Assembly: GCA_965214115.1 (NCBI GenBank)
Contig: CBDCAU010000008.1
Span: 156,347-220,346, forward strand
Direction of reading: 5' to 3'
Length of the DNA: 64,000 nt
From: Owenweeksia sp.
Lineage (GTDB): Bacteria > Bacteroidota > Bacteroidia > Flavobacteriales > Schleiferiaceae
Each line of letters starts with the position of its first letter. Within the stretch, counting starts at the first letter, position 1. A program made the position numbers and the translations under genes. The notes under the pieces were generated by a model that did not search any database, was not told the origin of the DNA, and saw only the letters and a list, made by a program, of their open reading frames with translations. Positions 2,923 through 57,706 of this stretch are shown here, in pieces.

Positions 2923-2929
2923 TATCTTC

Positions 2930-2937: not shown

Positions 2938-2961
2938 CGCCTCGAAAAAATTCCCCCAAAA

Positions 2962-4503: not shown

Positions 4504-4510
4504 TTTTAGG

Positions 4511-4592
4511 CGCGCAGATTTCGCAAATTCCGCAGATTCTTTAATCTCAAAACGGACTGGTTTTTTATCTGCGAAATCCGCGAAATCTGCGT
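4511..4592. repeat. REP-like inverted-repeat doublet (GCAGATTTCGC...GCGAAATCTGC)
   Basis: Inverted repeats in the intergenic region. Confidence 0.75.
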
Positions 4593-4622
4593 GAGAAAAA
4601 AGCCTGAAATCCGCGCGAAAAA

Positions 4623-34747: not shown

Positions 34748-35056
34748 CGGGGGCGGGTGAAGTTTTTATAAGAAGGGCGTAACACCGCTGGGCGCGAAAG
34801 TGTTCCGTCCCGTTCGGCATCAATGGTCGAAAGGGCGCATTTGACGTTTCACGTTTTTAAGGAAAATGTTGAACGTCATCCCAGCGGGCAACTTGTTGAG
34901 CCAAAATACCGTCCGCTGCCAACCGGAATTTGGAGGAGGGATTGGTATGTTAATTGCTGCCCGCGCCCGCAACCGAACTGCTGGCCGAATTGGGTAACAT
35001 TTTGTGTTAAACGCAATTTCTACAAGATATTCCCGCGCTGCCACAGTTTAAGAGGA

Positions 35057-35089
35057 GTCCCGAAGCGTAAGTTTCGGGGCTTTTTTTTG
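35057..35089 (+). terminator. Rho-independent terminator
   Basis: GTCCCGAAGC-GTAA-GTTTCGGGGC followed by a T run. Confidence 0.65.
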
Positions 35090-35369
35090 GTGTTTGATAA
35101 AATATCCAAATTTTCGCTATGCGAGCATAGCATATTGCCAATTCCTTGCTGCTCAGTTTTGTAGGAAAAAGAATTAACCTAATTCCTACAAAAATTTCCA
35201 TAACTATTTGACAACTTAACAAATAGATAACATCGAATATTTGGCAGTCTCATTTTTTTTTTTTTTGGTTTGTCAGGATTTTCCTCAAGAAGCTGGCCAG
35301 CCAATGATAAAAATCAAACAGAGGCTGGGAATAGTTCCCAGCCGTTTTTTAACTCTAATTTTTTTCAAA

Positions 35370-36416
35370 ATGAAAAAGTTATTTTTACCCCTCGCGGCTT
35401 GCGTTGCTTTAGCAAGCTGTAGCAAAGAGGAAACGATGAATGAGGCAAATGCACCTTTGGTGAAGAAGAGTATTCCGACTGAGGATGATGGCATATTGCT
35501 TGTCGTGCAGGATTTCGAGTCTACTTATTACGAATGGAAAGATGAAAATTACACTCCTTCTGCTGCGAAAACAATTGAGTATGAATATGCCATTTGGTTG
35601 GTGGAAGGTACGTTCAATTATGTGAATCGTGTAGGCGCAGAAGAGGTGCTTGAACATCCAAATTATACGAATCCTCAGTTTTATACTACCACCATTCCCG
35701 TGAGTGTAGAAAATAGCTCGGGCTACGTTTCGGAGGAAGATATGCTGGCACTCTTTGATGAGTTGGCGGGATTGCCAGGAGATCCTGCTCCAATCGCAAA
35801 TCTTTCCTTAACGGGGGTCTCTAACGGTAATTTGGAACTGGAACATAAGCGGTATTTATTTCCCGCAGCTCATAACGGTATCCCATATCCTATTACTGGC
35901 ACAGATAACTGGTTGGCGATTAATCCGGGAAAATGTAATTCACCTTCTTCTAAAAATGCGTCAGACCGCATCACCGAGGCTTTCTTGTATTATGACTATA
36001 CACAAGATGCAAGTTGGTACAATGGTTTGCAATCAATACATTTTTTTCCATGGAGCGCAGTGCCTGGTCTTTCCTTACAAGCATCGAAAGATTTTAAGCC
36101 GTGTATGTTGAGTGTTGATATGTCTGGAAACCAAATCATAACTGTTGTGGGTACGGGAACTAAATATTGCAATAGTTTTTGGGGTGGAAAAGAATATTGT
36201 GATGGCTTACCGTCACTCTCGCCTTCCGATTGCATTAACAGTACTGAAATGTCCGTTTTGGCTAATAAAGTAGATGCTATCTACGATGCAGAGTCCAATC
36301 TTATCGGCGATCCGCTGAGTGGTGGGGTGAGCGGTTTTCAGTCAGGTGGATACTTCACTCACGATATGTCATATGACATAGGTTTGGCAGGAAAGGCCGT
36401 AGCCGTAACACTGTAA
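35370..36416 (+). CDS. Hypothetical lipoprotein (low GC)
   Basis: MKKLFLPLAACVALASC lipobox; start moved to ATG 35370. Confidence 0.8.
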   Translation: MKKLFLPLAACVALASCSKEETMNEANAPLVKKSIPTEDDGILLVVQDFESTYYEWKDENYTPSAAKTIEYEYAIWLVEGTFNYVNRVGAEEVLEHPNYTNPQFYTTTIPVSVENSSGYVSEEDMLALFDELAGLPGDPAPIANLSLTGVSNGNLELEHKRYLFPAAHNGIPYPITGTDNWLAINPGKCNSPSSKNASDRITEAFLYYDYTQDASWYNGLQSIHFFPWSAVPGLSLQASKDFKPCMLSVDMSGNQIITVVGTGTKYCNSFWGGKEYCDGLPSLSPSDCINSTEMSVLANKVDAIYDAESNLIGDPLSGGVSGFQSGGYFTHDMSYDIGLAGKAVAVTL

Positions 36417-37981
36417 TGAGGCATATTTTAAATCCCAAAAGGAAAAATGCAGTTCTTGTGCTGCATTTTTTCTTTTGTTTTATGATAAGCTTGAACGCGC
36501 AAACTTTTGCAGATTTAGGCCAAAATGAATTTCAAAACAGTCCAGCACGTTACGACGCTTCTTGTAATTGTTTTGAAACCATAGTATCCTCCACACCTGC
36601 ATTTTATCAAAGTGCGGACTCAAATATGGTTTTTGTGCGACTACGCTACGACACTATTGGTCAGGTGATTGACAGCAATCGAATAAGCTTTTTGAATAAT
36701 TTCAATGCGAAATATCCCTTTAGTATTGACGCAGTTGATGGTTCCGAGACTATGGTTTTGGTTCGTTTCGCCGATTTTACCCGGTGTCATCCACAATCTA
36801 CCTCTGGAGTGCCGCAATGTTTGTCATCGGCTTATTTATCCCAATGGGATAATGATTCGGTCATCCTATTAGATAATGTGGCTACCGATTCTGCTTACGG
36901 CCTAAAAATTCTGGGTCATCAAAAAATTGGCGACTCCCTTTTTTTTGTAACAGAATACTATAGTGGATTAAAAGATACCGCAAAAAATTTATATTTTACC
37001 TCCATATACCTTCCCGATGGTTCTAAAAAAACTAAAATACTGAACTTGAAAATAGGTATGACGGATTTGGGTTTAGGTCGATTTCGGAGAGATCAAAATT
37101 CAAATGACTGGTTTGCTGTAGGGATTTTACAAAATACTTTTACACCTCTTATCTGTCGGTTAAATGCTGGAATGCAATTTGTAAAATCTTTTGATAATCT
37201 CTCATTTATCCCGCTTAATGGATTCACTAATATTTGGCAAACTAATAAGGAAATTTATGTCTATACTACTGGTGCAGTCATTACGCCTAAAGCATCCTCA
37301 AATATTTTAATGACTTATGCAATTGAAGTTTTTGACAAAAACCAAGATTCTATAACGGCGCGCCATTTCTATAATTTTTCACCTGACTCTACTGGTTGGG
37401 AGGCCAATTTGGCGGGTTTTGATTCTTATTTTGACGGAGAGCGCTTTGTGCTAACTGGTGTTTCAGATACCGACCCTTCTTTGGCCGGCCGTAGATTGAA
37501 AACCGTCTTATTTGAAGTAGACACCAGTTTTACGATTAAGAAAGCTCTTGAAATTTCGGACAGTACAAGTAATTACCGAGGTTCAATAACCCGATTATTA
37601 AAGGTTTCGCAATTCCCGTCCAAAATTTTCTACTTTGGAACAGTGAATAGTTCAATTCTAACGGGGTCTGCCGGTTTCAACTTGATGTTCGGCGAGTTTG
37701 TGATAAATGACTCATCTATTTCGACTGCTGACTACGTTTTCCATAAGGCCAATATGTACCTCTACCCCAACCCCTCAAAGGGCAAACTAAACTTACTATG
37801 GGACGGCGAAGATTTCAAACCCTATCCTGTAAAAGTGTATGATGTAAACGGCCGATTGGTCTTTCAAGCGCAAATCAAGAACGCGCGGGAAAAACTGGAT
37901 TTAAAACTTCCCGCCGGGCAGTATTTTTTAGAGGCACGGGAGGGCAGGTTTGCGGAAACGCAAAGTTTTATAGTGGAGTAG
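36416..37981 (+). CDS. T9SS type A sorting-domain protein (low GC)
   Basis: C-terminal LYPNPSKG...VYDVNGRLV...LPAGQYFL CTD; start overlaps the upstream stop. Confidence 0.82.
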   Translation: MRHILNPKRKNAVLVLHFFFCFMISLNAQTFADLGQNEFQNSPARYDASCNCFETIVSSTPAFYQSADSNMVFVRLRYDTIGQVIDSNRISFLNNFNAKYPFSIDAVDGSETMVLVRFADFTRCHPQSTSGVPQCLSSAYLSQWDNDSVILLDNVATDSAYGLKILGHQKIGDSLFFVTEYYSGLKDTAKNLYFTSIYLPDGSKKTKILNLKIGMTDLGLGRFRRDQNSNDWFAVGILQNTFTPLICRLNAGMQFVKSFDNLSFIPLNGFTNIWQTNKEIYVYTTGAVITPKASSNILMTYAIEVFDKNQDSITARHFYNFSPDSTGWEANLAGFDSYFDGERFVLTGVSDTDPSLAGRRLKTVLFEVDTSFTIKKALEISDSTSNYRGSITRLLKVSQFPSKIFYFGTVNSSILTGSAGFNLMFGEFVINDSSISTADYVFHKANMYLYPNPSKGKLNLLWDGEDFKPYPVKVYDVNGRLVFQAQIKNAREKLDLKLPAGQYFLEAREGRFAETQSFIVE

Positions 37982-37985
37982 CCCA

Positions 37986-38014
37986 CTTTTCCAAAGTTCG
38001 GAACTTTGGAAAAG
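37986..38014. terminator. Perfect palindrome; probable bidirectional terminator or REP
   Basis: CTTTTCCAAAGTT-CGG-AACTTTGGAAAAG. Confidence 0.65.
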
Positions 38015-38101
38015 CTATAATTTCAAACACACATTCTTCTTCTCCGTAAAAAAATCCAGCGCCTCGAAACCGCCCTCGCGTCCCACGCCGCTGTTTTTCA
38101 T
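38015..38101 (-). pseudogene. Orphan duplicate of the ALDH gene 3' end
   Basis: 38022-38101 matches 38788-38867 at 77/80 nt; encodes MKNSGVGREGGFEALDFFTEKKNVCLKL*. Confidence 0.9.
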
Positions 38102-38139
38102 CTCAATGAAACCAACGATTAATAATGAGATTTTGAATT

Positions 38140-38493
38140 TCAATACGACTGGTTTCTCAAATTTTCCCCATCGTAAACGTAAAGCCTCCGAGCAGGATTT
38201 ATTTTTTCCACCGAAATCAAGTGTTCCACCAATTCACCAGCGTACTTGATTTGCTCAGCCTCAAGACGCAAAAAGATGACGCCCGCTTCGGGATAGAGAC
38301 CTTTCTGAAAAATCAAGCGTCCAAAATCGCTGTCAAAAGTGACGATGACGCGGTTCTCCAAATTGGAAATCGCAATGATGTTTTCATCCTTGATACTGGG
38401 GTGCGCCCGACCCACGGCTTTCACATCGTGGCCTTTTTCGATGAGATAATCTATCATCTTATTCGATAGATTTTCGTCCGCCAAGAGCCTCAT
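38140..38493 (-). CDS. DUF5615 family PIN-like protein (putative toxin)
   Basis: MRLLADENL, VIVTFDSDFG, GVIFLR. Confidence 0.88.
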   Translation of the reverse strand: MRLLADENLSNKMIDYLIEKGHDVKAVGRAHPSIKDENIIAISNLENRVIVTFDSDFGRLIFQKGLYPEAGVIFLRLEAEQIKYAGELVEHLISVEKINPARRLYVYDGENLRNQSY

Positions 38494-38732
38494 CCCGAAA
38501 CCTTTTGCGGGAAGGGCAGGTAGAGCGATTCCTGCAATTCTTCACTGACGTATTGAAAAATGGCCTGCAAATGCTCTTTGCGCAGCCTCGGATAATTCTC
38601 CAAAAGTTCTGCCTCGCTCCAGCCGCCCGCCATCAGTTTCACCAAAAACTCTATCGAAAGCCGCGTGCCTTTGATGGCGGGCTTGCCCATCAGCACTTCG
38701 GGGTCAGATACGATGTGGTTTCTCCAGTCCAT
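38490..38732 (-). CDS. DUF433 family protein (putative antitoxin)
   Basis: IVSDPEVLMGKPAIKGTRLSIE...ELLENYPRL. Confidence 0.9.
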   Translation of the reverse strand: MDWRNHIVSDPEVLMGKPAIKGTRLSIEFLVKLMAGGWSEAELLENYPRLRKEHLQAIFQYVSEELQESLYLPFPQKVSG

Positions 38733-38780
38733 TTTTTTGAGAATTGAAAAGCGAATTTCGGAAATTTTGAGGAGAACCTT

Positions 38781-40223
38781 TCAAACCTTCAAACACACAT
38801 TCTTCTTCTCCGTAAAAAAATTCAGCGCCTCGAAACCGCCCTCACGGCCCACGCCGCTGTTTTTCATTCCGCCAAAAGGCGTGCGCAAATCCCTGACCAG
38901 CCAGCAATTGAGCCACACAATTCCGGCATCCAACTTTGCCGTCACGCGGTGCGCGCGGTTCAAGTTTTCCGTGAAAACGGTGGCCGCCAAACCGTACTGC
39001 GTGGAGTTGGCCATTTTCAAAACTTCGGCCTCCGTTTCAAAAGGCGTGAGCGTCACCACCGGCCCGAAAATCTCTTCCTGGTTGGTGCGGCATTGGTAAT
39101 CCAAACCTTCGATTACCGTGGGTTCCAAATAAAAACCGTCGGCAAATTCGCCGTCCATTGTCAGGCGATTTCCGCCGTGCAGAACCGTCCCGCCTTCTTC
39201 TTTCGCCAGTTCGATGTAGCGCATCACTTTTTCCAAATGCGCTTCCGAAACCAGCGCGCCCATTTTGGAATTTTCGTCGGTGGGCGGCCCTACTTTCAAA
39301 GTTTTCACTCGTTCCAAATAGGCGTTTTTAAATTTTTCATAAATGCTTTTTTCAATAAAAAGACGGCTGCCGCAAAGGCAGATCTGTCCTTGGTTGGCAA
39401 AGCTGGCGGTGACGGAAGTTTTCACGGCGAGGTCAAAATCACAATCCGCAAAAATCAAATTGGGGTTTTTGCCACCCAGTTCCAGCGACAGTTTTTTGAA
39501 CATCGGGGCGGCGGTGCGCGCGAGATGTTCGCCCGTTTTCGTGCCGCCGGTAAAACTGATGGCTTTTATTTTGGGATGTTCCACGATGGCCTGCCCCACC
39601 TCCGGCCCCGTGCCGTGGAGGATGTTCAGAACGCCAGTGGGCATTCCGGCTTCTTGGCAGATTTCCGAAAGTAGGAAAGCAGTCATTGGCGTCACTTCGC
39701 TGGGTTTGGCAATCACGCAATTTCCCGCCGCCAGTGCTGGCGCAATTTTCCAAGTGAACAGATACAGCGGCAAATTCCACGGCGAAATGCAGCCCACCAC
39801 CCCAATCGGCTGGCGCAAAGTGTAATTGAAACCCTCGCCGCCCATTTGGTGGAAGTGGCTGTCTTCGTGCAAGATAGCCGTGGCAAAAAAGGCAAAATTG
39901 TCCCGCGCGCGGGGGATGTCCACGGCGGTGGCGAGCTTTACGGGCTTGCCGTTGTCGAGGCTTTCGGCTTGCGCCAATTTGTCCAAATTTTCATCAATTA
40001 AATTGGAAACCCGCAGCATAATTTCCGAGCGCTCCCTGGCGGAAAAACCGCTCCATTTTGGGAATGCCGCAGTTGCAGCATCCACCGCTTTTTGCACGTC
40101 TTTTTCGTCGGATTTCGGGATGAGCGAATACACTTTTCCCCGCGAGGGGTCGATGTTTTCCAGCCATTCGCCGGAAGCGGGTTCGTGCCATTCGCCGTTG
40201 ATGTAATTGAGGATTTTTTTCAT
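38781..40223 (-). CDS. Aldehyde dehydrogenase, probably 2-aminomuconate/2-hydroxymuconate semialdehyde dehydrogenase
   Basis: ISPWNLPLYL, ELGGKNP, NQGQICLCGSR, EEIFGPV, WLVRDLRTPFGGMK. Confidence 0.88.
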   Translation of the reverse strand: MKKILNYINGEWHEPASGEWLENIDPSRGKVYSLIPKSDEKDVQKAVDAATAAFPKWSGFSARERSEIMLRVSNLIDENLDKLAQAESLDNGKPVKLATAVDIPRARDNFAFFATAILHEDSHFHQMGGEGFNYTLRQPIGVVGCISPWNLPLYLFTWKIAPALAAGNCVIAKPSEVTPMTAFLLSEICQEAGMPTGVLNILHGTGPEVGQAIVEHPKIKAISFTGGTKTGEHLARTAAPMFKKLSLELGGKNPNLIFADCDFDLAVKTSVTASFANQGQICLCGSRLFIEKSIYEKFKNAYLERVKTLKVGPPTDENSKMGALVSEAHLEKVMRYIELAKEEGGTVLHGGNRLTMDGEFADGFYLEPTVIEGLDYQCRTNQEEIFGPVVTLTPFETEAEVLKMANSTQYGLAATVFTENLNRAHRVTAKLDAGIVWLNCWLVRDLRTPFGGMKNSGVGREGGFEALNFFTEKKNVCLKV

Positions 40224-40326
40224 TGGAATAAACGCAAGATGTTAGACACAAGACGCAAGTTTGGAGGGTCGGCATGATTGGCATGGAGTCATTGGCCCAT
40301 TGTCCCATTGACTAATTGTCTCATTA

Positions 40327-41115
40327 TTAAAGATTCCCCAGCCTTCCCCCATCCACCGGCAGATTAATCCCATTAATGTACCCCGCCGCCGGACTGCACA
40401 AAAACGCAATCGCATTGGCAATTTCTTCCGGCTTCGCAAAGCGCTTCAGCGGCACTTCCGCCGTCATTTTTTTCTCCACCGCTTTTTCAGGCGTCCCCGT
40501 TTTTTTCGCCTTGTTTTCGATGATGGAACTGAGCCGCCCCGTCTCCGTCGCGCCCGGCAGCACGTTGTTCACGGTGATGCCGAATTCGCCCAGTTCATTG
40601 GACAAAGTCTTGCTCCAATTGGCCACCGCGCCACGAATCGTGTTGCTCACGCCGAGGTTGGGCAGCGGTGCTTTCACGCTGGTGCTGATTACGTTTACGA
40701 TGCGGCCGTACTTTGATTTTTGCATCCCCGGCAATAACAGTTTTACCAATAATTGATTGCACAACAAATGCTGCCGAAACGCATCCACAAATTCTTCCAA
40801 ATCTGCTTTATGCGCCGGGCCAGCAGGTGGGCCGCCCGTATTATTAATTAGAATATTAAAATCGTTGCCATTATTCAGACAACCCGAAACCACACTCTCC
40901 AATGAAACAGGATCATTAAAATCCGCCACCAAAAATTGGTGTTTTTGATTATGGCTGGTGCTGAGGTTTTTCTGCACTTTTTCCAGCTTTTCCGCATTCC
41001 GCGCCAGCAAGGTAATTTCCGCGCCCATCCGCGCCAGTTCTTCGGCGGCGGCCTTTCCGATGCCGTCAGAACTTCCGCATACGAGGGCTTTTTTATTGGT
41101 GAGATTTAAGTCCAT
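40327..41115 (-). CDS. SDR family oxidoreductase
   Basis: CGSSDGIG, NNTGGPP, SNTIR, NNVLPG, VDGG. Confidence 0.9.
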   Translation of the reverse strand: MDLNLTNKKALVCGSSDGIGKAAAEELARMGAEITLLARNAEKLEKVQKNLSTSHNQKHQFLVADFNDPVSLESVVSGCLNNGNDFNILINNTGGPPAGPAHKADLEEFVDAFRQHLLCNQLLVKLLLPGMQKSKYGRIVNVISTSVKAPLPNLGVSNTIRGAVANWSKTLSNELGEFGITVNNVLPGATETGRLSSIIENKAKKTGTPEKAVEKKMTAEVPLKRFAKPEEIANAIAFLCSPAAGYINGINLPVDGGRLGNL

Positions 41116-41352: not shown

Positions 41353-41422
41353 TTTTCACTATTCCCCTAATTAACTAATTGTCCGATTGTCTCATTGGCA
41401 AATTGCCTAATTGTCCCATTGA

Positions 41423-42130
41423 CTAATTGTCCAATTGCCCCATTGTCTCATTCATTTTATCACTCTCCACCATCCCGTCCCGCAGCCGGATCACCCGCTT
41501 GGCGTGCAGCGCGATTTCCTCTTCGTGCGTCACCAAAATCACCGTGTTGCCGTTGCGATGGATTTCTTCAAACAAATTCATTATTTCGATGGAGGTTTTG
41601 CTATCCAAATTCCCCGTTGGTTCATCCGCCAAAATGATGGAGGGATTGTTCACCAGCGCCCGCGCCACGGCCACGCGCTGCCTTTGCCCGCCGCTGAGTT
41701 GGTTCGGCCGATGGTCCATCCGGTCGCCCAGCCCCACGGATTCCAAAACTTCCTCCGCGCGTTTTTTCCGAGCGGAACTGGACATCCCCGCGTAAACCAA
41801 AGGCAGCGTAACATTCTCCAAAGCGGTGCTGCGCGGCAATAAATTAAAAGTTTGGAAGACAAACCCAATCTCGCGGTTGCGGATTTCAGCCAGCTCATTG
41901 TCAGACAGTTGGCTTACGTCCTGTTCGTTCAGAATATACTCGCCGGAAGTGGGCGTGTCCAGACAGCCAATCAAATTCATCAAGGTAGATTTCCCGCTCC
42001 CGCTCGGCCCCATCAAAGCGACGTACTCGTTCCGCTTGATGTCCAAGTCAATGCTTTTCAGCACTTTAACGACTTGATTTCCAAGGGGAAAATTGCGGAT
42101 GATTTGGCGGAGACGGATGATTTCGTTCAT
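41423..42130 (-). CDS. ABC transporter ATP-binding protein (LolD/MacB-like)
   Basis: [27 protein letters not shown]. Confidence 0.95.
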
Positions 42131-42245: not shown

Positions 42246-42410
42246 ATTGTCCCATTGTCCCATTGTCCCATTGTCCCATTGTCCCATTGTCCCATTGTCC
42301 CATTGTCCCATTGTCCCATTGTCCCATTGTCCCATTGTCCCATTGTCCCATTGTCCCATTGTCCCATTGTCCCATTGTCCCATTGTCCCATTGTCCCATT
42401 GTCCCATTGT
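42246..42410. repeat. Octamer microsatellite (ATTGTCCC)x20
   Basis: Perfect tandem copies at 42246-42405 plus a partial unit; degenerate relatives at about 40291-40325 and 41369-41453. Confidence 0.95.
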
Positions 42411-42418
42411 CAAATTGA

Positions 42419-48942: not shown

Positions 48943-49036
48943 AATCCAAAATTATTATGTTTGTTTAGGAATGAAATCCAAAATTATTATGTTTATTTGG
49001 GAATGAAATCCAAAATTATTATGTTTATTTGGGAAT
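48943..49036. repeat. Three tandem 32-bp direct repeats
   Basis: AATCCAAAATTATTATGTTTRTTTRGGAATGA at 48943, 48975 and 49007 (last copy 30 bp); no spacers. Confidence 0.9.
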
Positions 49037-50441: not shown

Positions 50442-50467
50442 CCGCCCTTTTGCAAAAAGCAAAAAAT

Positions 50468-53400
50468 ATGGCGCGCAACTATCCCGAATTCAAGCAATTA
50501 GACCTTGTGAAAATCCACAACGACATTCTGGATTTTTGGAAGGAAAACGACATTTTTGAGCAAAGCGTTTCCTCCCGCGAGGGGCGCGAAAACTTCGTGT
50601 TTTACGAAGGGCCGCCCTCGGCCAACGGGATGCCGGGCATCCACCACGTGATGGGCCGCGCCATCAAGGATATTTTTTGCCGCTACAAAACATTGGACGG
50701 TTTTCAAGTCCATCGAAAAGCGGGTTGGGACACCCACGGACTGCCCGTGGAGCTTGGCGTGGAGAAGGAATTGGGTATAACAAAAGAGGACATCGGCAGC
50801 AAAATTTCTGTAAAAGAATACAACGAGGTCTGCAAAAAAGCGGTGATGAAATACACCGACGCGTGGAACGACCTGACCGAGAAAATGGGCTATTGGGTGG
50901 ATATGGGCGACCCCTATATCACCTACAAACCCAAGTATATGGAAACGGTGTGGTGGCTTCTCAAACAACTGTGGGACAAGGACTTAATGTATAAAGGCTA
51001 TACAATTCAACCGTATTCGCCGGCCGCCGGCACGGGGCTGAGTTCCCACGAAATCAATATGCCGGGCTGCTACCGCGAGGTGAAGGATACATCAGTAATT
51101 GCGCAGTTTCCGGTGGTGCGGAATGAGAAATTTCAAAAGGTTTTTGGCGAAGCGGTTTCGGTGGAGGATGCGGTGTATTTCCTCGCTTGGACGACCACGC
51201 CTTGGACGTTGCCCAGCAACACCGCGCTGACGGTGGGGAAAAGTATTCCCTATGTTTTAGTGGAAACTTTCAATCAATATACCCATCAAAAACAGAAGGT
51301 AGTTTTAGCCAAAAATTTAGTAGCTAAATATTTCAAAAAAGAGGCGAAAAATGTTTCTTTTTCTGATTATAGAAAGGATGGAAAAAATATTCCTTGGAAG
51401 ATTGTTTGGGAAGGTTTGGGCGAGCGGCTTTTAGATTTGAAATATGAGCAACTTTTGCCGTATGCAAAACCTTACGAAAATCCCGACCAAGCGTTTCGGG
51501 TGATTGCTGGCGATTTTGTGACGACAGAAGACGGAACTGGCATTGTCCACACTGCGCCTACGTTTGGTGCGGATGACGCGAAAGTGGCGAAAGAAAATGG
51601 CGTGCCGCCGATGTTGGTTTTGGATGAAAATGGCAACGCCGTCCCGCTGGTGGATTTGCAGGGGAAATTCCGAAAGGAAATGGGTGAATTCGCTGGAAAA
51701 TTCGTGAAAAACGAATATTATTTGGAAAGCGAAAAACCGGATAAATCAGTTGATGTAGAAATCGCCATTAAATTAAAAGAAGAAAACAAAGCTTTTTTAG
51801 TCGAAAAATACAGCCACAGCTATCCCCATTGTTGGCGCACGGACAAGCCCGTATTATATTATCCGCTGGACAGTTGGTTTGTGAAAGTGACCGCCGAGCG
51901 CGAAAAGCTGGTGGCGCTGAACAAAACCATCAATTGGAAACCCGCCGCCACGGGCGAAAAACGCTTTGGCAACTGGCTGGAAAACGCCAACGACTGGAAC
52001 CTTAGCCGCAGCCGTTCTTGGGGAATCCCGCTGCCGATTTGGAGTACCGAAGACGGCACGGAACGGCAAATCTTTGGCAGCGTGGCCGAGTTGAAAAGAG
52101 CCTGCGACGACGCCGTAGAAGCGGGTTTGATGGATTCCCATCCTTTTGAAAAATTCGAGTTGGACAATCTTTCCGATGAGAATTACGACACCGTGGATTT
52201 GCACCGTCACATTGTAGATGACATCATCCTAAAATCCCCGCAAGGGAAACCGATGAAACGGGAGGCGGATTTGATTGATGTGTGGTTTGATTCGGGGAGT
52301 ATGCCGTATGCGCAGTGGCATTATCCGTTTAGCCCCCTATCCCCCAAAGGGGGGAAATTGGAGCGTGAAAGCGCGCATAATAAAACGTCCAATTCTAACG
52401 TCCGTGTAGCTGAACCCCCCTTTGGGGGGCAGGGGGGCTGGCAAGATTTAGCGAGTGTTTTCCCCGCCAACTTCATCGCCGAAGGCGTGGACCAAACCCG
52501 CGGCTGGTTCTACACGCTCCACACCATCGCTGGATTGGTTTTCGATTCGGTGGCGTATAAGAATGTGATTTCCAACGGATTGGTGCTAGACAAAAACGGC
52601 CAGAAAATGTCGAAGCGCCTCAAAAATGCGGCTGACCCATTTGAGACTTTGGACAAATACGGCGCGGACGCGGTGCGCTGGTATATGATTGCGAATGCGC
52701 AGCCGTGGGACAATCTGAAATTTGATTTCGCGGGCATCGCCGAGGTGCAGCGCAAATTTTTTGGGACGCTATATAATACGTATTCGTTTTTTGCGCTGTA
52801 CGCGAATATCGATAGGTTTGAGTGGGATTCGGCGCGGCTTTCGGAGGTGAAAAACCGGCCGGAAATCGACCGCTGGATTTTGTCGCGGCTGCAAGTTTTG
52901 AAAAAAACGGTGCGCGAAAATTTCGACAATTACGAACCGACTTGGGCGGCGCGCGCCATCCAAAATTTTGTGGATGAGGAGCTAAGTAACTGGTATGTAA
53001 GGCTTTGCCGGAAACGGTTTTGGCGCGGCGAAATGAGCGCCGACAAACGGATGGCCTACGAAACGCTTTACGAATGCCTGTTCACGGTGAGCCAATTGAT
53101 GAGTCCGGTGGCGCCGTTTTTCGCGGATTGGCTGTACCGAAACCTGACGGAACATCTGCCGGAAGGCGAAAAAGAAAGCTCGGTGCATCTGACTTTTTTG
53201 GCGCAAGCCCAAGAAAACCAAATCGATACACATCTGAACGAGCGGATGAAAATGGCGCAGCGGCTCAGTTCGATGGTGCTGTCGTTGCGGCGGAGCGAGT
53301 CCATAAAAGTGCGGCAGCCGCTGCAAAAAATGATGGTGCCGGCGCTGAAACCGGAGGTGGCCGAACTGATAAAAAGCATCGAGGACATCGTGCTGGCGGA

Positions 53401-53971
53401 GGTGAACGTGAAAGAACTGGAAATTTTGCGCGACGTGCAGGGCGTGCTGGTGAAAAAGGCGAAACCGGATTTCAAAAAACTGGGCCCGAAATACGGCAAG
53501 TTGATGAAGCCAATCGCGGGCGCGGTGAAAAATTTTGACCAAGACCAAATCGAAAAACTGGAAGAAAAAGGCGTTTTGGATTTGGAAATCGGCGGGGAGA
53601 AAATCGCGCTGGCGCTGGGCGACGTGGACATCGAAACGGAGGACATCCAAGGTTGGCTGGTGGCCACGGAGGGCGGGCTGACGGTGGCTTTGGACGTCAC
53701 GATTTCGGACGAACTGCGCTACGAGGGCATCGCCCGCGAGCTGGTGAACCGCATCCAAAACCTGCGCAAAGACAGTGGGCTGGAAGTGACCGACCGCATT
53801 TCGCTGCAGATTTTGAAAAACGACGAAATCAGCAAGGCGCTGGCGCAAAACCGCGACTACATTGCCAGTGAAACCTTGGCGAACGAAGTGATTGAAAAAG
53901 AGGAAATGATTGGTGGGTTGGAGTTGGATTTAGGGGAAGTGCAGACGGCAATTGCGTTGGAGAAAGTTTAG
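50468..53971 (+). CDS. ileS: Isoleucine--tRNA ligase, carrying an in-frame palindrome insertion
   Basis: EGPPSANG.PGIHH, GWDTHGLP, WTTTPWT, DWNLSRSR.WG, DVWFDSG, EGVDQTRGWF, KMSKR. Confidence 0.97.
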   Translation: MARNYPEFKQLDLVKIHNDILDFWKENDIFEQSVSSREGRENFVFYEGPPSANGMPGIHHVMGRAIKDIFCRYKTLDGFQVHRKAGWDTHGLPVELGVEKELGITKEDIGSKISVKEYNEVCKKAVMKYTDAWNDLTEKMGYWVDMGDPYITYKPKYMETVWWLLKQLWDKDLMYKGYTIQPYSPAAGTGLSSHEINMPGCYREVKDTSVIAQFPVVRNEKFQKVFGEAVSVEDAVYFLAWTTTPWTLPSNTALTVGKSIPYVLVETFNQYTHQKQKVVLAKNLVAKYFKKEAKNVSFSDYRKDGKNIPWKIVWEGLGERLLDLKYEQLLPYAKPYENPDQAFRVIAGDFVTTEDGTGIVHTAPTFGADDAKVAKENGVPPMLVLDENGNAVPLVDLQGKFRKEMGEFAGKFVKNEYYLESEKPDKSVDVEIAIKLKEENKAFLVEKYSHSYPHCWRTDKPVLYYPLDSWFVKVTAEREKLVALNKTINWKPAATGEKRFGNWLENANDWNLSRSRSWGIPLPIWSTEDGTERQIFGSVAELKRACDDAVEAGLMDSHPFEKFELDNLSDENYDTVDLHRHIVDDIILKSPQGKPMKREADLIDVWFDSGSMPYAQWHYPFSPLSPKGGKLERESAHNKTSNSNVRVAEPPFGGQGGWQDLASVFPANFIAEGVDQTRGWFYTLHTIAGLVFDSVAYKNVISNGLVLDKNGQKMSKRLKNAADPFETLDKYGADAVRWYMIANAQPWDNLKFDFAGIAEVQRKFFGTLYNTYSFFALYANIDRFEWDSARLSEVKNRPEIDRWILSRLQVLKKTVRENFDNYEPTWAARAIQNFVDEELSNWYVRLCRKRFWRGEMSADKRMAYETLYECLFTVSQLMSPVAPFFADWLYRNLTEHLPEGEKESSVHLTFLAQAQENQIDTHLNERMKMAQRLSSMVLSLRRSESIKVRQPLQKMMVPALKPEVAELIKSIEDIVLAEVNVKELEILRDVQGVLVKKAKPDFKKLGPKYGKLMKPIAGAVKNFDQDQIEKLEEKGVLDLEIGGEKIALALGDVDIETEDIQGWLVATEGGLTVALDVTISDELRYEGIARELVNRIQNLRKDSGLEVTDRISLQILKNDEISKALAQNRDYIASETLANEVIEKEEMIGGLELDLGEVQTAIALEKV
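52331..52439. repeat. REP-doublet insertion inside ileS
   Basis: AGCCCCCTATCCCCCAAAGGGGGG ... CCCCCCTTTGGGGGGCAGGGGGGCT imperfect terminal inverted repeats. Confidence 0.85.
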
Positions 53972-54000: not shown

Positions 54001-54669
54001 ATGAACTCGAAAAAAATCATAAAAAGAATATCCGAGCACATAGCTTTGGAAGGTTTCAAACCAGCCGTAGTTAATTATCTTTTAATGCTCGCGCGAGTCA
54101 CCGAAAATAGAAGGGATGAAATTGTTTTTCCTACAACCAAACGGACGATGGCCAGCAATTTGGTAGCCAGAATTCAATTCCCTGCTGTTGAAGAAATATA
54201 TAAATCAGCGGTTAATAAGAATGATGGAAACTATGTATCGAGTACTCTTCTAAAACAAGTCGATGCCGATTCATTTGTCAATACGTATGAGATAATTTAT
54301 ACTGAGGATGTAGATAAAGACATTCCCTATTTTAAAGAAGCAATTGATAACGGTGCCATTCCATTTTTCAACAAATACCAATCGGTTGAAGCGGTTTACG
54401 GTGAGATGAAAAATATAAATAAATCGAACTACTTAGATTATATGCAAGGATTACACAAGTTTATTGGACATCCGGTTATCGTAAGATATTTAATCATACT
54501 TGGATTGATGGGCGATGATGATTTTTATAAAGAATCCGACAGGCAGTTGAAGTTTATAGAAGAGCATGAATCTTCTAATGCTGAAATTGACTTGCAGACT
54601 CGAAATGTCAACAAAATCTTACCCACGGTAATTCAGATGACCAAAGAAAAATTTGGCTCATTGAAATGA
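54001..54669 (+). CDS. Low-GC hypothetical protein
   Basis: 222-aa ORF with AT-rich codon usage; no family recognised with confidence. Confidence 0.7.
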   Translation: MNSKKIIKRISEHIALEGFKPAVVNYLLMLARVTENRRDEIVFPTTKRTMASNLVARIQFPAVEEIYKSAVNKNDGNYVSSTLLKQVDADSFVNTYEIIYTEDVDKDIPYFKEAIDNGAIPFFNKYQSVEAVYGEMKNINKSNYLDYMQGLHKFIGHPVIVRYLIILGLMGDDDFYKESDRQLKFIEEHESSNAEIDLQTRNVNKILPTVIQMTKEKFGSLK

Positions 54670-54872: not shown

Positions 54873-54971
54873 GAAACCTTGGCGGATGAAGTGTTTGAAA
54901 AAGAGGAAGTTGGCGGCGGTTTGGAACTGGATTTTGATGCGGTAAAAGTGGCGATGGCGTGTGGAAAAGTG
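54873..54971 (+). pseudogene. Orphan diverged copy of the ileS 3' end
   Basis: ETLADEVFEKEEVGGGLELDFDAVKVAMACGKV aligns without gaps to ETLANEVIEKEEMIGGLELDLGEVQTAIALEKV (21/33 aa). Confidence 0.85.
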
Positions 54972-55097: not shown

Positions 55098-55790
55098 ATG
55101 ATAGTAAAAACAGTAGCCAATTCTACCGAAGCCGTGCGCGGCCTAAAAGACGGGATGACGCTGATGCTGGGCGGTTTCGGGCTGTGCGGCATCCCTGAAA
55201 ATTCCATCGCCGCCATCCGCGAAAACGGCGCGAAAAACCTAACCTGCATCAGCAACAACGCGGGCGTGGACGATTTTGGGTTGGGACTGCTGTTGCAGAC
55301 GCGGCAAATCAAAAAGATGATTTCCAGCTACGTGGGCGAAAATGCGCTGTTTGAAAAACAGATGCTGAGCGGCGAGCTGGAGGTGGATTTGGTGCCGCAA
55401 GGTTCGCTGGCCGAACGGTGTCGCGCGGCGGGAGCGGGCATCCCCGCGTTTTACACGCCCGCCGGCTACGGAACCGAAGTGGCGCACGGCAAGGAAGTTC
55501 GCTGGTTCAAAGGGAAACCGCACATTTTGGAACACGCTTTTGAAGCGGATTTTGCTTTCGTAAAAGCGTGGAAAGGCGACGATGCGGGCAATTTGATTTT
55601 CAAGGGCACGGCGCGGAATTTCAACCCCTTGATGGCGATGGCGGGGAAAATCACCGTGGCGGAAGTAGAGGAACTGGTGCCGGCGGGCGAGCTGGATCCG
55701 AACTTTATCCATACGCCGGGGATTTTTGTGCAGAGGATTTTTAAGGGGAAGAATTATGAAAAGAGGATTGAGCAGCGGACGACTCGGTAG
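55098..55790 (+). CDS. scoA: 3-oxoacid CoA-transferase subunit A
   Basis: [44 protein letters not shown]. Confidence 0.93.
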
Positions 55791-55832
55791 TCTTGAAATT
55801 TGCCACAAAGACTCAAAGGCGCTATTAGTTTT

Positions 55833-55840
55833 TACCTTTG
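55833..55840 (+). promoter_or_regulatory. -7 promoter box upstream of the TA array (TACCTTTG)
   Basis: Exact TAnnTTTG match 17 nt before ATG 55858. Confidence 0.65.
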
Positions 55841-55857
55841 GAAAAAAACCTACGCCA

Positions 55858-56166
55858 ATGCCTAAAATCTATGAATATCTTGGGATTTCGATTTTCTTCT
55901 TCTCCAATGAGCACGAGCCGATTCATGTGCACGGGCTGTACGGCGAATTTGAAAGCAAGGCGGAAATTTTCTGGATTGAAAAAAACGTTTTGAAAGTAGA
56001 AATTATAGAAATCTCAGGTAAAAGATCATTGAAAGGAAAAACTCTAAAAAACTTTGAGATATTCATTAATGAATATGCAGTAGAGATTATGGAAAAATGG
56101 AATCTGTATTTTAAGCAAGGAATTACTAAATTGACATTTGAAAGGATCACTAAAAAAATTCGATGA
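55858..56166 (+). CDS. DUF4160 family putative toxin, copy 1
   Basis: MPKIYEYLGISIFFFSNEHEPIHVH motif. Confidence 0.85.
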   Translation: MPKIYEYLGISIFFFSNEHEPIHVHGLYGEFESKAEIFWIEKNVLKVEIIEISGKRSLKGKTLKNFEIFINEYAVEIMEKWNLYFKQGITKLTFERITKKIR

Positions 56167-56507
56167 TGAAGGTAATTGTAGAAGTAAAATACGATGAAAA
56201 AACAGTAGATGACAACCGTAAAATCTATTCAGTTATCGATGCTCGCTACATCGGCGATTTTGCTATCCGTGTTTTCTTTTCCGATGGTCATCAAAAATTG
56301 GTGGATTTCAAGCCTTTTTTGGAGCAGGTTAAGCAGCCTCTTGCAATGCAATATTTAGAGGAAGAAAAGTTCAAAGAGTTTGAGATTGTCCACGGCAATT
56401 TGAACTGGAACGATTATGAGATGATTTTTCCCTTGGATGATTTATACAATAATTCTATCCTGAAGGAAACAAAGACAAAGGAGCGCGAAGTTTTAGAAAA
56501 TGCCTAA
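56163..56507 (+). CDS. DUF2442 family putative antitoxin, copy 1
   Basis: IRVFFSDG....VDF...L, LNWNDYEMIFPLDDLY. Confidence 0.85.
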   Translation: MMKVIVEVKYDEKTVDDNRKIYSVIDARYIGDFAIRVFFSDGHQKLVDFKPFLEQVKQPLAMQYLEEEKFKEFEIVHGNLNWNDYEMIFPLDDLYNNSILKETKTKEREVLENA

Positions 56508-56802
56508 AATTTATGAATATCTTGGGATTTCGATTTTCTTCTTTTCCCGTGAACACGAACCTATCCACGTTCACGCACGCTACGGAGAATTTCAAAGCAG
56601 GGCGGAATTTATTATCGCGGATGGCAAAGTGGTCGATATTCGAATTATTGGTGTTAAAGGTTCAGACCCTTTGGTAGGAAAAGTCTTGAAAAACTTTGAA
56701 GATTTCTTAGAAGTTTTTGCTGATGAAATGATACAAAAGTGGGTTGATTATTTTGTTTATGGCAAGAAGTTAAAGTTGAAAAGAATCACTAAAAAGCTTT
56801 GA
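56500..56802 (+). CDS. DUF4160 family putative toxin, copy 2
   Basis: MPKIYEYLGISIFFFSREHEPIHVH motif. Confidence 0.85.
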   Translation: MPKIYEYLGISIFFFSREHEPIHVHARYGEFQSRAEFIIADGKVVDIRIIGVKGSDPLVGKVLKNFEDFLEVFADEMIQKWVDYFVYGKKLKLKRITKKL

Positions 56803-56805
56803 AAA

Positions 56806-57135
56806 ATGAAGATAACCGTTGATTACAGCAATTTGAAAAAAGATAACCAAGTATATTCTGTAACCGATGCCAAGTACATCGGCGATTTTGCTATCCGTGT
56901 TTTCTTTTCCGATGGTCATCAAAAATTGGTGGATTTCAAGCCTTTTTTGGAACAGGTTACCCATCCCAGCGCCAAGCAATATTTTAATGAAGAAAAGTTT
57001 AAGGAATTTGAGATTGTGGATGGCATTTTGAATTGGAATGATTACGAAATGATTTTTCCCTTGGATGATTTATATAATAATACTATTCTGAAAGAAACGA
57101 AAACCAAGGAGCGCGAAGTTTTGGAAAATGCCTGA
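56806..57135 (+). CDS. DUF2442 family putative antitoxin, copy 2
   Basis: Same motifs as copy 1; 77-bp identical block (56247-56323 and 56875-56951). Confidence 0.85.
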   Translation: MKITVDYSNLKKDNQVYSVTDAKYIGDFAIRVFFSDGHQKLVDFKPFLEQVTHPSAKQYFNEEKFKEFEIVDGILNWNDYEMIFPLDDLYNNTILKETKTKEREVLENA

Positions 57136-57166
57136 AATTTCCAACTTTTAAAACAGAAAAACCTAA

Positions 57167-57706
57167 ATGACCAAAAGAGATTTTTTTATTTCACTTCTTA
57201 AAGTTTTTGGATTGTTTTCGGCGATAGCGGCGCTATTTTCTTCTCTGCCCTCCTACCTTTCTTTTGCCATTGCCAGTTTTGATTGGATTTCTCTCTTTTG
57301 GGTTTCGGTGGCTTCCATAGTGGTGATTGGGCTTTTTTTGCTTCTTATTTTTAAGTCAGAAAATATTGTAAGTATTTTAAAATTGGACAGCGGATTCGAT
57401 ACCGACCATATTGATTTTGGAAATTTGAAGGCGGTTGATTTAATCAAAATCGGGACTTTTGTGGTGGGAGGTTTTTTGATTTTAGATAATATCCCCACTT
57501 TTTTAGGTCACACTTTGTATGCTTTTAAAGGAGAGCAAATGGGCTTGGAATCTACTCCTCGTGATAATCTGATGTGGACGATGAGTGGGCTGAATCTCAT
57601 CATCGGATACATTTTGATTACCAACTACCATTTTGTGGCGGCCCGTTTTTACAAACACGAAAAGGGAGAAACGACCACTTCAACGAATCACGATTTAACG
57701 AGTTAA
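57167..57706 (+). CDS. Hypothetical multi-pass membrane protein
   Basis: Four hydrophobic segments. Confidence 0.7.

What the first reader, a model, noticed from the sequence alone, without database searches (positions are those of the whole stretch)
38015..38867. TA module bracketed by two versions of the ALDH gene 3' end
Seen: the DUF433/DUF5615 pair lies between 80-bp direct repeats (period 766 bp, 77/80 identical). Two of the differences are synonymous and one is Asn/Asp, and each copy ends with its own stop (KV* vs KL*), so both look like real alleles rather than a simple target duplication. No integrase or transposase is nearby. Known: homology-facilitated illegitimate recombination uses one homologous anchor and one illegitimate joint. 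Inference: donor DNA replaced the gene end, brought the TA cargo, and displaced the resident end downstream next to its old terminator (37986-38014).
Basis: partly seen in the sequence, partly recalled or inferred. Interest (0 to 1): 0.7.

Follow-up and report, generated by a model that had tools for sequence, protein, structure and literature searches.

The report
Toxin-antitoxin insert flanked by target duplication
A 686-bp toxin-antitoxin gene pair sits inside the last codons of an aldehyde dehydrogenase gene between two copies of 80 bp of that gene, which looks like the "insertion with long target duplication" already described for restriction-modification genes, here with a different selfish cargo.

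Summary
An 80-nt direct repeat (38022-38101 / 38788-38867, 77/80 identical) brackets a DUF433 antitoxin and a DUF5615 PIN-like toxin. An independent assembly of the only public run holding this DNA supports both junctions.

The distal copy ends KL*, the commonest ending among 120 homologues. KV* is never seen in them. Homology stops sharply 7 nt before the stop codon, so the Val-stop is read from insert DNA that starts with an 8-nt copy of the neighbouring gene sequence. The Asp in the distal copy occurs in no homologue. This fits one insertion with an 80-81 bp target duplication followed by drift. It does not require two alleles joined by homology-facilitated illegitimate recombination.

No integrase or transposase lies between 14 and 50 kb, and the insert has no terminal inverted repeats and no attC-like structure. 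The closest known kind is insertion with long target duplication, described for restriction-modification systems.

Two extra leads:
- ileS in the same window has its last 33 codons repeated 1 kb downstream, around an orphan ORF.
- About 7% of 73 DUF433/DUF5615 modules elsewhere have clean flanking repeats of 29-102 nt.

No close relative exists in any collection, so the empty-site test could not be run. The mechanism is inferred.

The parts
38781..40223 (-). Aldehyde dehydrogenase gene (480 aa). Closest models are 2-hydroxymuconic / aminomuconate semialdehyde dehydrogenase. It is intact and ends ...NVCLKV*.
   Evidence: Pfam PF00171, E 6e-171. NCBIfam TIGR03216, 576 bits, below its equivalog cut-off. 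Homologues are at most 82% identical.
38788..38867 (-). Proximal copy of the 80-nt repeat. It is part of the working ALDH reading frame (codons for MKNSGVGREGGFEALNFFTEKKNVCLK).
38102..38787 (-). The inserted segment: 686 nt that match nothing else in the window. It holds only the TA operon, a 55-nt leader and a 38-nt trailer. GC is 46%, against 47.6% for the window.
   Evidence: No terminal inverted repeats. No significant RNA structure in the leader.
38779..38794 (-). Proximal junction, read on the minus strand as GTTTGAAG|GTTTGAAA. The last 7 nt of the repeat are followed, one base on, by a copy of the 8-mer with which the original gene end continues. This supplies the Val codon and the TGA stop (38781-38783).
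   Evidence: Shuffle test p about 0.01. A plain join at that 8-mer would lengthen ALDH by 24 codons.
38490..38732 (-). DUF433 (COG2442) antitoxin, 80 aa, a predicted DNA-binding helical bundle.
   Evidence: Pfam PF04255, E 5e-19. PDB 2GA1, E 1e-4. A DUF433 gene lies directly upstream of the toxin homologue in 78 of 80 other loci.
38140..38493 (-). DUF5615 PIN-like toxin, 117 aa. Its start overlaps the antitoxin stop (ATGA).
   Evidence: Pfam PF18480, E 4e-21, with a weak PIN_10 hit. D6, E7, D54 and D56 are invariant in the alignment of six homologues.
38015..38101 (-). Dead copy of the last 29 codons of ALDH. It consists of the distal repeat copy (38022-38101) plus the original last codons and stop (...CLKL*, 38015-38021).
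   Evidence: tblastn 93% over 29 aa. The KL ending is typical of the family. The sequence upstream of it is unrelated to ALDH.
37986..38014 (.). 29-nt perfect palindrome, flush with the stop of the dead copy and 4 nt after the stop of the convergent T9SS-tail gene. It is probably a two-way terminator hairpin and is a dispersed element.
   Evidence: The same palindrome has other flanks in at least two other contigs of run X1. It is single-copy in the window.
36416..37981 (+). Convergent neighbour: a T9SS C-terminal sorting-domain protein. It belongs to a low-GC block (34800-38000, 35-42% GC) that abuts the palindrome.
   Evidence: Pfam PF18962, TIGR04183, composition profile.

Best explanation
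A 686-bp piece of foreign DNA, carrying only a DUF433/DUF5615 (PIN-COG2442, VapBC-like) toxin-antitoxin operon, was inserted two codons before the stop of the aldehyde dehydrogenase gene. In the same event 80-81 bp of the target were duplicated. This is 'insertion with long target duplication', the mode described for restriction-modification systems.

The proximal copy keeps the gene whole. Its last residue and stop are now read from the insert. The distal copy is the original gene end (KL*), pushed 766 bp downstream against the hairpin.

I found no sigma-70-type promoter or terminator-like site, and no significant RNA structure, between ALDH and the antitoxin (Bacteroidetes-type promoters were not scanned). 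I infer that the pair is read through from ALDH and terminated at the old hairpin.

Recombination between the two 80-bp copies would excise a 766-bp circle and restore the ancestral gene exactly. I infer that the addictive property of the pair penalises that loss. This would explain why the repeats lasted long enough to collect three substitutions: two silent ones, and Asn to Asp in the dead copy.

The molecular route of the duplication is not shown. The candidates are:
- joining of foreign DNA to offset breaks on sister strands near the hairpin-forming palindrome
- template switching during replication
- for spread between strains, single-crossover re-integration of an excised circle
For: - The repeat is real, unique and sharply bounded. 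Both junctions and a two-fold depth of the shared 34-mer are seen in an independent assembly.
- The distal copy carries the family-typical KL* end. KV, and Asp at the variable site, occur in none of 120 homologues.
- Val-stop is built from an 8-nt copy of the neighbouring sequence.
- No integrase or transposase was found among the ORFs scanned between 14 and 50 kb. There are no terminal inverted repeats.
- The toxin has no plasmid or phage relatives at E 1e-5.
- The structure meets Furuta et al.'s criteria for insertion with long target duplication, apart from the empty site: insert under 20 kb, duplication over 30 bp, no mobility genes, low-copy repeats (PMC2853133).
- Same architecture again in this window: the last 33 codons of ileS are repeated 1 kb downstream around an orphan ORF. 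The split of differences by codon position (7/6/15) fits, by my own rough expectation, one dead and one constrained copy.
- In 73 other DUF433/DUF5615 modules, 8 have flanking direct repeats of at least 40 bits, against 14 of 503 shifted control windows (Fisher p = 0.003). Five to six of these are clean unique repeats of 29-102 nt that lie tight against the cassette.
- A ParDE-like TA pair in Microcystis flanked by 152-bp direct repeats has been reported (PMC7935541).
Against: - No empty site or filled/empty pair could be examined. The nearest ALDH homologue is 82% identical and only one sequencing run holds this DNA. The direction of the event and the identity of the two copies at birth are therefore inferred.
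- Three differences are too few to tell drift from allelic origin.
- The survey signal is mixed. One positive looks like an integron attC array (L052), one is a hairpin element (L085) and two are low-complexity sequence. Control positives cluster in a few repeat-rich loci.
- The one empty-site search tried for a survey locus found only the filled form.
- The mechanism of long target duplication is unknown even for restriction-modification systems.
- The postulated stabilisation by post-segregational killing is untested.
Confidence: 0.55

Rival explanations
1. One reading: homology-facilitated illegitimate recombination. Donor DNA from a related strain, already carrying ALDH(KV*)-TA, recombined homologously inside ALDH. 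Its far end joined illegitimately 87 nt upstream of the recipient's stop, so the proximal copy is the donor allele and the distal copy the recipient allele. A mirror version is also possible, with the anchor on the T9SS/RmuC side and the distal copy arriving with the low-GC block.
For: - The repeats are not identical, and 2 of the 3 differences are synonymous.
- The left boundary of the repeat is a sharp non-homologous joint.
- The ALDH-RmuC interval varies between relatives, and a low-GC block abuts the remnant. The site has therefore been hit by transfer more than once.
Against: - The model needs an earlier, unexplained event that put the TA pair two codons before the stop in the donor.
- KV* is absent from 120 homologues and is made of a local 8-nt copy.
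- If KV* and KL* were alleles 96% alike, 6 differences in the last 9 nt would be odd.
- Asp in the distal copy is unknown in the family, which fits decay better than a working recipient allele.
Confidence: 0.17
2. Remnant of a site-specific integrative element. An island with a tyrosine or serine recombinase integrated into the 3' end of ALDH and carried its own copy of the gene end (attP). Later deletions removed everything except the TA pair and both att sites, leaving a CIME-like relic, possibly still mobilisable in trans.
For: - Integration into gene 3' ends with direct repeats of tens of bp, and an element-supplied gene end, is classic for genomic islands.
- TA pairs are common island stabilisers and would be the last genes lost.
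- The ileS case nearby has the same geometry.
Against: - No recombinase gene was found among the ORFs scanned between 14 and 50 kb.
- Only 55 nt and 38 nt separate the repeats from the TA genes. That leaves no room for att arm sites and would need two deletions ending almost exactly at the cassette.
- The repeat sequences differ from locus to locus in other genomes and share no core.
- In the collections searched, the insert has no relatives on plasmids or phages.
Confidence: 0.1
3. Local duplication first, cargo later. A tandem duplication of the ALDH end, or of the whole gene, arose by slippage or unequal crossing-over. The TA pair then replaced the material between the copies.
For: Tandem duplications are frequent. 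Other tandemly duplicated modules exist in the window (DUF4160/DUF2442).
Against: - It needs at least two independent events with end points coinciding at the cassette edges.
- No trace of further ALDH sequence lies between the copies.
Confidence: 0.05
4. Assembly artefact. The chromosome has one copy of the 80 nt, and a separate 766-bp circle or a strain variant was threaded into the contig.
For: In a k=31 graph the 34-nt identical stretch makes the loop ambiguous.
Against: - The TA unitig, the ALDH unitig and half the shared node all have the same depth (11.7, 11.2, 23/2).
- The two copies carry distinct variants, each linked within a unitig to its own junction.
- A 766-bp molecule with no replication gene, kept at exactly one copy per chromosome, is implausible.
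Confidence: 0.03

Closest known systems
Insertion with long target duplication of restriction-modification systems (Nobusato et al. 2000, Gene 259:99; Furuta, Abe & Kobayashi 2010, PMC2853133)
   Same: - A small addictive gene module with no mobility gene is inserted between long (more than 30 bp, variable, locus-specific) direct repeats of the target.
- Several published cases overlap the 3' end of a neighbouring gene.
- The repeats are near-identical but often not identical (44/46, 417/423).
- The mechanism is unknown, with DNA breakage suspected.
   Different: - The cargo is a type II toxin-antitoxin pair, not a restriction-modification system, so the module encodes no DNA endonuclease known to cut chromosomes.
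- No empty-site genome is available here, whereas the published cases rest on filled/empty comparisons.
- The host is a Bacteroidota MAG-like genome of unknown competence.
ParDE-like TA module downstream of the orthocaspase MaOC1 in Microcystis aeruginosa PCC 7806, 'fenced' by two identical 152-bp direct repeats (PMC7935541)
   Same: A two-gene type II TA module lies directly downstream of a host gene and between long direct repeats, with no mobility gene reported.
   Different: - Those repeats are intergenic, starting 14 bp after the stop, and contain a 16-bp inverted repeat.
- They were not shown to be target duplications.
- The TA family is different.
PIN-COG2442 (DUF433) toxin-antitoxin pairs, e.g. 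VapBC10 of Synechocystis (Makarova et al. 2009, PMC2701414; PMC3834315)
   Same: - Same domain pair and gene order: a small DUF433 antitoxin upstream and overlapping a PIN-like toxin.
- The pairing is conserved in 78 of 80 loci from many phyla.
   Different: - Identity to the other DUF5615 toxins retrieved is only 31-62%, and no VapBC10 sequence was compared here.
- Toxicity and neutralisation are untested.
- No PADLOC or NCBIfam model matches.
Homology-facilitated illegitimate recombination in transformable bacteria
   Same: Foreign DNA joined with no recombinase, with one sharp illegitimate joint.
   Different: From my own knowledge of that literature, the usual outcome is insertion with deletion of recipient DNA. 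Here the target is duplicated, and the 'donor' gene end looks secondary rather than allelic.
Integron gene cassettes carrying TA modules
   Same: Promoter-less two-gene TA cassettes of about 0.7 kb bounded by repeats. One survey locus (L052) probably is such an array.
   Different: The repeat here is ALDH coding sequence without attC dyad symmetry. There is no intI and no cassette array.

Membership tests
Insertion with long target duplication (criteria of Furuta et al. 2010) | Direct repeats longer than 30 bp flank the inserted module | tested here: met
   80 nt, 77/80 identical.
Insertion with long target duplication (criteria of Furuta et al. 2010) | Insert shorter than 20 kb that contains the complete selfish module | tested here: met
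   686 nt holding both TA genes intact. The cargo class differs: TA instead of restriction-modification.
Insertion with long target duplication (criteria of Furuta et al. 2010) | No integrase, transposase or phage genes in or beside the insert | tested here: met
   Pfam scans of the larger ORFs from 14 to 50 kb found none. A few small ORFs were not scanned.
Insertion with long target duplication (criteria of Furuta et al. 2010) | Repeats are low-copy, not a dispersed repeat family | tested here: met
   Two copies only in the window. In run X1 only the expected unitigs match.
Insertion with long target duplication (criteria of Furuta et al. 2010) | A related genome shows the empty site with one copy of the repeat | not testable with these tools
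   Best homologue is 82% identical. There is no exact-protein record, a single run holds the DNA and no variant contigs appear at 80% likeness. Indirect support only: the distal copy has the family-typical end.
Type II TA, PIN-COG2442 (DUF5615/DUF433) | Both domains present above the curated thresholds | tested here: met
   PF18480 at 75.5 bits (cut-off 23.8) and PF04255 at 68.2 bits (cut-off 23.6).
Type II TA, PIN-COG2442 (DUF5615/DUF433) | Small antitoxin gene directly upstream, overlapping or abutting the toxin, as a conserved pair | tested here: met
   4-nt ATGA overlap. The pair is conserved in 78 of 80 loci.
Type II TA, PIN-COG2442 (DUF5615/DUF433) | Conserved acidic residues of the PIN-like active site | tested here: met
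   D6, E7, D54 and D56 are invariant in alignment A2. Their structural placement was not modelled.
Type II TA, PIN-COG2442 (DUF5615/DUF433) | The toxin arrests growth and the antitoxin neutralises it | not testable with these tools
   Needs expression experiments.
Homology-facilitated illegitimate recombination | The proximal gene end is a genuine allele from a donor lineage | tested here: inconclusive
   KV is absent from 120 homologues, and homology ends before the last codon. No close lineage is available to compare.
Site-specific integrative element / CIME | Recombinase gene in cis or nearby, with att arms beside the core | tested here: not met
   No recombinase from 14 to 50 kb. Only 55 nt and 38 nt lie between the repeats and the genes.
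Integron cassette | attC site with imperfect dyad symmetry, and intI with an attI-led array | tested here: not met
   The repeat is ALDH coding sequence. No inverted repeat lies within or at the insert ends, and no intI was found.
IS / transposon / MITE | Terminal inverted repeats and a short (under 15 bp) target duplication | tested here: not met
   No terminal inverted repeats. The duplication is 80 bp.

The most novel reading that the evidence does not exclude
Small addiction modules such as DUF433/DUF5615 pairs may be autonomous mobile cassettes of about 0.7-1 kb. They would enter chromosomes by a recombinase-free route that duplicates 30-100 bp of target, the same route as restriction-modification systems. 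They would persist because excision through the repeats is lethal, and could spread as excised circles that re-integrate by a single crossover. The module's own DNA-binding protein and PIN-like nuclease might take part. The two gene-end duplications in this one window and the flanking repeats at about 7% of family members elsewhere would be footprints of that route.
Probability: 0.12. Interest if true: 0.75.

Novelty: new member of a known kind. Interest (0 to 1): 0.4.

Why it matters
How chromosomal toxin-antitoxin pairs move is still unclear. They are called mobile two-gene modules, but outside plasmids, prophages, integrons and transposons no insertion mechanism is assigned to them.

A clean case with both junctions preserved shows that a TA pair can arrive alone, with an 80-bp target duplication and a gene end repaired on the spot. 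This links TA mobility to the poorly understood 'long target duplication' route of restriction-modification systems.

It also yields a testable idea: addiction protects the repeats from recombinational loss, so such modules preserve the scar of their own insertion.

For annotation there are two practical points. The 42-codon ORF over the distal copy is a gene fragment. The ALDH C-terminus is a chimera of gene and insert.

Tried and rejected
1. Extension of the repeat through the stop codon into the hairpin. An 18/23 match appeared in the MAFFT alignment, but it is not significant against shuffles (p = 0.09), so I dropped it.
2. Strain-level empty site. All of the following found no close relative:
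   - exact-protein look-ups for ALDH, the toxin and P0122
   - an exact DNA scan of genome contigs
   - related loci by protein (at most 80% identity)
   - a 5.8-billion-protein search (at most 82%)
   - SRA k-mer search (one run)
   - contigs laid at 80% likeness
3. Polarising the two synonymous differences with outgroups. L001 has GGC and L012 has GGA at the Gly codon, so this is uninformative.
4. Empty site for a survey locus. The L105 repeat in metagenome contigs returned only the same filled arrangement.
5. Shared motifs, microhomology or templated filler at the junctions of six other repeat-flanked modules. There is no recurrent pattern. Only the window's own 8-mer stands out (p about 0.01).
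6. Plasmid or phage carriage of the toxin: no match.
7. PADLOC and NCBIfam naming of the TA proteins and of the orphan ORF: no match.
8. Flanking genes of the survey loci: mostly without Pfam hits, so whether those repeats are gene ends stayed open.
9. Literature: I found no paper in the library describing long target duplication for TA modules. The Microcystis report of repeat-fenced ParDE is the nearest.
Full report
**What is in the sequence.** All the genes concerned lie on the minus strand. Reading in the direction of transcription, the order is:
- an aldehyde dehydrogenase gene (40223-38781, 480 aa; Pfam Aldedh E 6e-171; nearest NCBIfam model 2-hydroxymuconic semialdehyde dehydrogenase)
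- a 48-nt gap
- a DUF433 gene (38732-38490, 80 aa)
- a DUF5615 PIN-like gene (38493-38140, 117 aa), whose ATG overlaps the DUF433 stop as ATGA
- 38 nt of spacer
- an 87-nt dead copy of the last 29 codons of the dehydrogenase (38101-38015)
- flush with its stop, a perfect 29-nt palindrome (37986-38014)
- 4 nt further, the stop of a convergent T9SS-tail gene

The repeat finder and blastn find exactly two copies of an 80-nt segment, 38022-38101 and 38788-38867, 77/80 identical and 766 nt apart. The differences are one first-position change (Asn in the gene, Asp in the dead copy) and two third-position silent changes in adjacent Gly-Arg codons.

**Is it an assembly artefact?** Only one public run holds this DNA. 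Its Logan contigs are an assembly independent of the window.
- A 792-nt unitig runs from 38026 to 38817 without a mismatch, so it contains both junctions.
- The ALDH-side unitig starts at 38792.
- The 34-nt stretch that is identical in the two copies forms its own node at depth 23, against 11.7 and 11.2 for its neighbours.

That is what two chromosomal copies give. An extra circle would raise the TA depth, and a mixed population would lower it. I take the structure as real. Read-level linkage across the 34-mer could not be checked.

**Where the homology ends.** A first alignment suggested that similarity ran past the stop into the hairpin (18 of 23). Against 2000 dinucleotide shuffles it is not significant (p = 0.09). 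Upstream of the repeat there is nothing (p = 0.75). The repeat is therefore sharply bounded at both ends, and its 3' boundary lies 7 nt before the stop codon.

The distal copy continues ...GTTTGAA-ATTATAG (Lys-Leu-stop). The proximal copy continues ...GTTTGAA-G-GTTTGAAA-GGTTC (Lys-Val-stop). The first bases of the insert thus repeat the 8-mer with which the original gene end goes on (shuffle p about 0.01; 4e-4 by composition). A plain join at that 8-mer would have lengthened the enzyme by 24 residues into the antitoxin start. The observed form stops at once. This looks like a junction made or mended locally, not a natural allele.

**Which copy is the original end?** No close relative exists.
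- The best homologues among 5.8 billion proteins are 82% identical.
- The best genomes are Owenweeksia-like MAGs at 80%, with other genes downstream.

The family still gives a direction.
- Among the 120 best homologues the commonest C-terminus is ...NVC[ILV]KL.
- KV never occurs.
- At the Asn/Asp site the homologues carry His, Lys, Arg, Asn or Gln, never Asp.

So the dead copy keeps a family-typical end and has one change that no working enzyme shows. The working copy has an end found nowhere else. That is the pattern expected if the distal copy is the displaced original and the KV* end is secondary. The two silent differences can sit in either copy and do not decide anything.

**What the cargo is.**
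- Both Pfam hits are far above threshold.
- The antitoxin matches the solved DUF433 protein 2GA1.
- Acidic residues D6, E7, D54 and D56 of the toxin are invariant among its homologues.
- In 78 of 80 loci from many phyla that encode a relative of the toxin, a DUF433 gene lies directly upstream.

[quoted passage not shown] (PMC2701414). One member, VapBC10 of Synechocystis, has been studied (PMC3834315, abstract). Toxicity of this particular pair is untested. I found no sigma-70-type promoter-like or terminator-like site between ALDH and the antitoxin, and the leader has no significant structure. I infer read-through from ALDH and termination at the hairpin (-16 to -18 kcal/mol).

**What is not there.**
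- Pfam scans of the larger ORFs from 14 to 50 kb show no integrase, transposase or phage gene.
- The insert has no terminal inverted repeats.
- The repeat is coding sequence, not an attC-like dyad.
- The toxin has no relatives on plasmids or phages at E 1e-5.
- Only 55 nt and 38 nt separate the repeats from the genes. That leaves little room for the arm sites of a site-specific system.

**Best explanation.** A single insertion of a 686-bp TA cassette two codons before the ALDH stop, with duplication of 80-81 bp of target, followed by drift (three substitutions) and perhaps by the 8-nt event that restored an early stop.

This is the structure that Kobayashi's group called insertion with long target duplication. 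It was first seen for restriction-modification genes in Helicobacter pylori and later in seven further genera (Furuta et al. 2010, PMC2853133; review PMC3874152). In those cases the repeats run from about 45 to about 420 bp, are often slightly unequal, and sometimes overlap the 3' end of a neighbouring gene, with no mobility genes present. All their criteria that can be tested here are met. The one that cannot is the empty site.

The mechanism is unknown for restriction-modification systems too. For this locus I note, as inference only, that the repeat ends 7 nt from a perfect palindrome, a sequence class prone to fork stalling and breakage. Joining foreign DNA to sister strands broken at offset positions, or a template switch, would give the duplication.

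Recombination between the repeats would restore the ancestral gene exactly and release a 766-bp circle. I infer that the addictive nature of the cargo selects against such loss. The same logic has been proposed for restriction-modification systems, and it would explain why the scar is still legible.

**Rivals.**
It does not explain why the 'donor' end is a local 8-nt copy and unknown in the family. By my own knowledge of that literature, it normally produces deletions, not duplications.
- *A decayed integrative element (about 0.1).* It fails on the missing recombinase and the lack of space.
- *Duplication first, cargo later (about 0.05).*
- *An assembly artefact (about 0.03).*

**Two further observations bear on generality.**

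First, the window holds a second case.
- The last 33 codons of ileS (53870-53967) recur at 54873-54970, 71% identical with no indel.
- They bracket a 222-aa ORF with no homologue anywhere.
- Differences fall 7/6/15 on codon positions. By my own rough expectation this fits one free and one constrained copy.
- Against 13 relatives, the remnant keeps a Phe-Asp conserved in all of them where the working gene has Leu-Gly. The working gene keeps Thr, Ile, Leu, Glu and the stop where the remnant has drifted.
- Both copies have therefore diverged from a common target, the older analogue of the ALDH case.

Second, I surveyed 73 other DUF433/DUF5615 modules.
- Eight have direct repeats of at least 40 bits within 400 nt on either side, against 14 of 503 shifted control windows in the same loci (Fisher p = 0.003).
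- The positives are mixed. L052 looks like an integron array, L085 is a hairpin element, and L056 and L095 are low-complexity sequence.
- L104 (102 nt), L100 (55 nt, a fragment of an ABC-F gene end), L094 (40 nt) and L105 (32 nt) have unique, sharply bounded repeats lying tight against a 0.7-1 kb cassette.
- I could not find an empty site for any of them.
- A Microcystis ParDE-like pair 'fenced' by 152-bp direct repeats has been published without this interpretation (PMC7935541).

I regard the generality as a lead, not a result.

**Verdict.** The feature is real and is best read as a toxin-antitoxin cassette inserted with a long target duplication. It is a new member, with a new cargo class, of a known but mechanistically unexplained kind of insertion. 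Interest is moderate: the case is clean and makes TA mobility more testable, but a specialist would not be greatly surprised, and the decisive comparison cannot be made with present data.

Noticed in passing
window 53870-53967 and 54873-54970, with ORF 54001-54669 between: The last 33 codons of ileS (gene 50450-53971) are repeated 1003 nt downstream (71% identical, no indel). They bracket a 222-aa ORF with no homologue in 5.8 billion proteins and no Pfam, PADLOC or NCBIfam hit. The remnant keeps a Phe-Asp conserved in 13 relatives where the working gene has Leu-Gly. This is the same architecture as the ALDH/TA case but older.
   Followed up: partly
window 55726-57706, between 55098-55790 and 57717-58370: Two tandem DUF4160/DUF2442 gene pairs (units 84-87% identical, period about 630-640 nt) plus a 179-aa membrane ORF separate the A and B subunits of a CoA-transferase. 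No flanking duplication of the host genes was found.
   Followed up: partly
window 42246-42411; also 40282-40331 and 41370-41452: A perfect 8-nt tandem array (ATTGTCCC, 20.8 copies), with degenerate arrays of the same unit, lies in three successive intergenic gaps of the ALDH-SDR-ABC gene row. These arrays create spurious ORFs (MGQWDNGT repeats).
   Followed up: no
window 37986-38014, and other contigs of run X1: The 29-nt palindrome next to the ALDH remnant also occurs, with different flanks, in at least two other contigs of the same run. In one of them it again follows a TAG stop by 4 nt. It is a dispersed hairpin element rather than a terminator private to ALDH.
   Followed up: partly
window 34800-38000: A low-GC block (35-42%, against a window mean of 47.6%) holds a lipoprotein-like gene and a T9SS-tail gene and abuts the palindrome. 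In an Owenweeksia MAG (L001) the ALDH-to-RmuC/MarC interval holds other genes, so this interval is a variable spot.
   Followed up: partly
window 37600-39400 in run X1: The Logan contig covering the left flank (12.8 kb, ending at 38051) has mean depth 6.8, against 11.2-11.7 for the TA and ALDH contigs. This could reflect strain heterogeneity to the left of the insert, or a coverage bias of the low-GC block.
   Followed up: no
window 2091-2135, 2881-2925 and 2827-2846: A 45-nt repeat (84%, spacing 790 nt), with a third degenerate inverted copy, surrounds an unannotatable 259-aa ORF upstream of a second aldehyde dehydrogenase gene. It looks like a short dispersed repeat element.
   Followed up: no
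window 48943-49036: A 32-nt tandem repeat, 2.9 copies, 96% matches, in the gap upstream of a DUF4143/AAA_14 ATPase gene.
   Followed up: no
L052 (Gemmatimonadales MAG) 1578-4943: The DUF433/DUF5615 module lies in a run of units about 650 nt long, separated by repeats containing GCCTAAC...GTTAGAC-like motifs. It is probably a chromosomal integron cassette array.
   Followed up: no
L100 (Chromatiales MAG) 2582-2636 and 3413-3467: The 55-nt repeats flanking this TA module encode the C-terminal residues of an ABC-F ATPase (...VRWFDGNYAMYEKDRK). No intact ABC-F gene adjoins either copy, as if the cassette had moved together with a fragment of an earlier target.
   Followed up: partly
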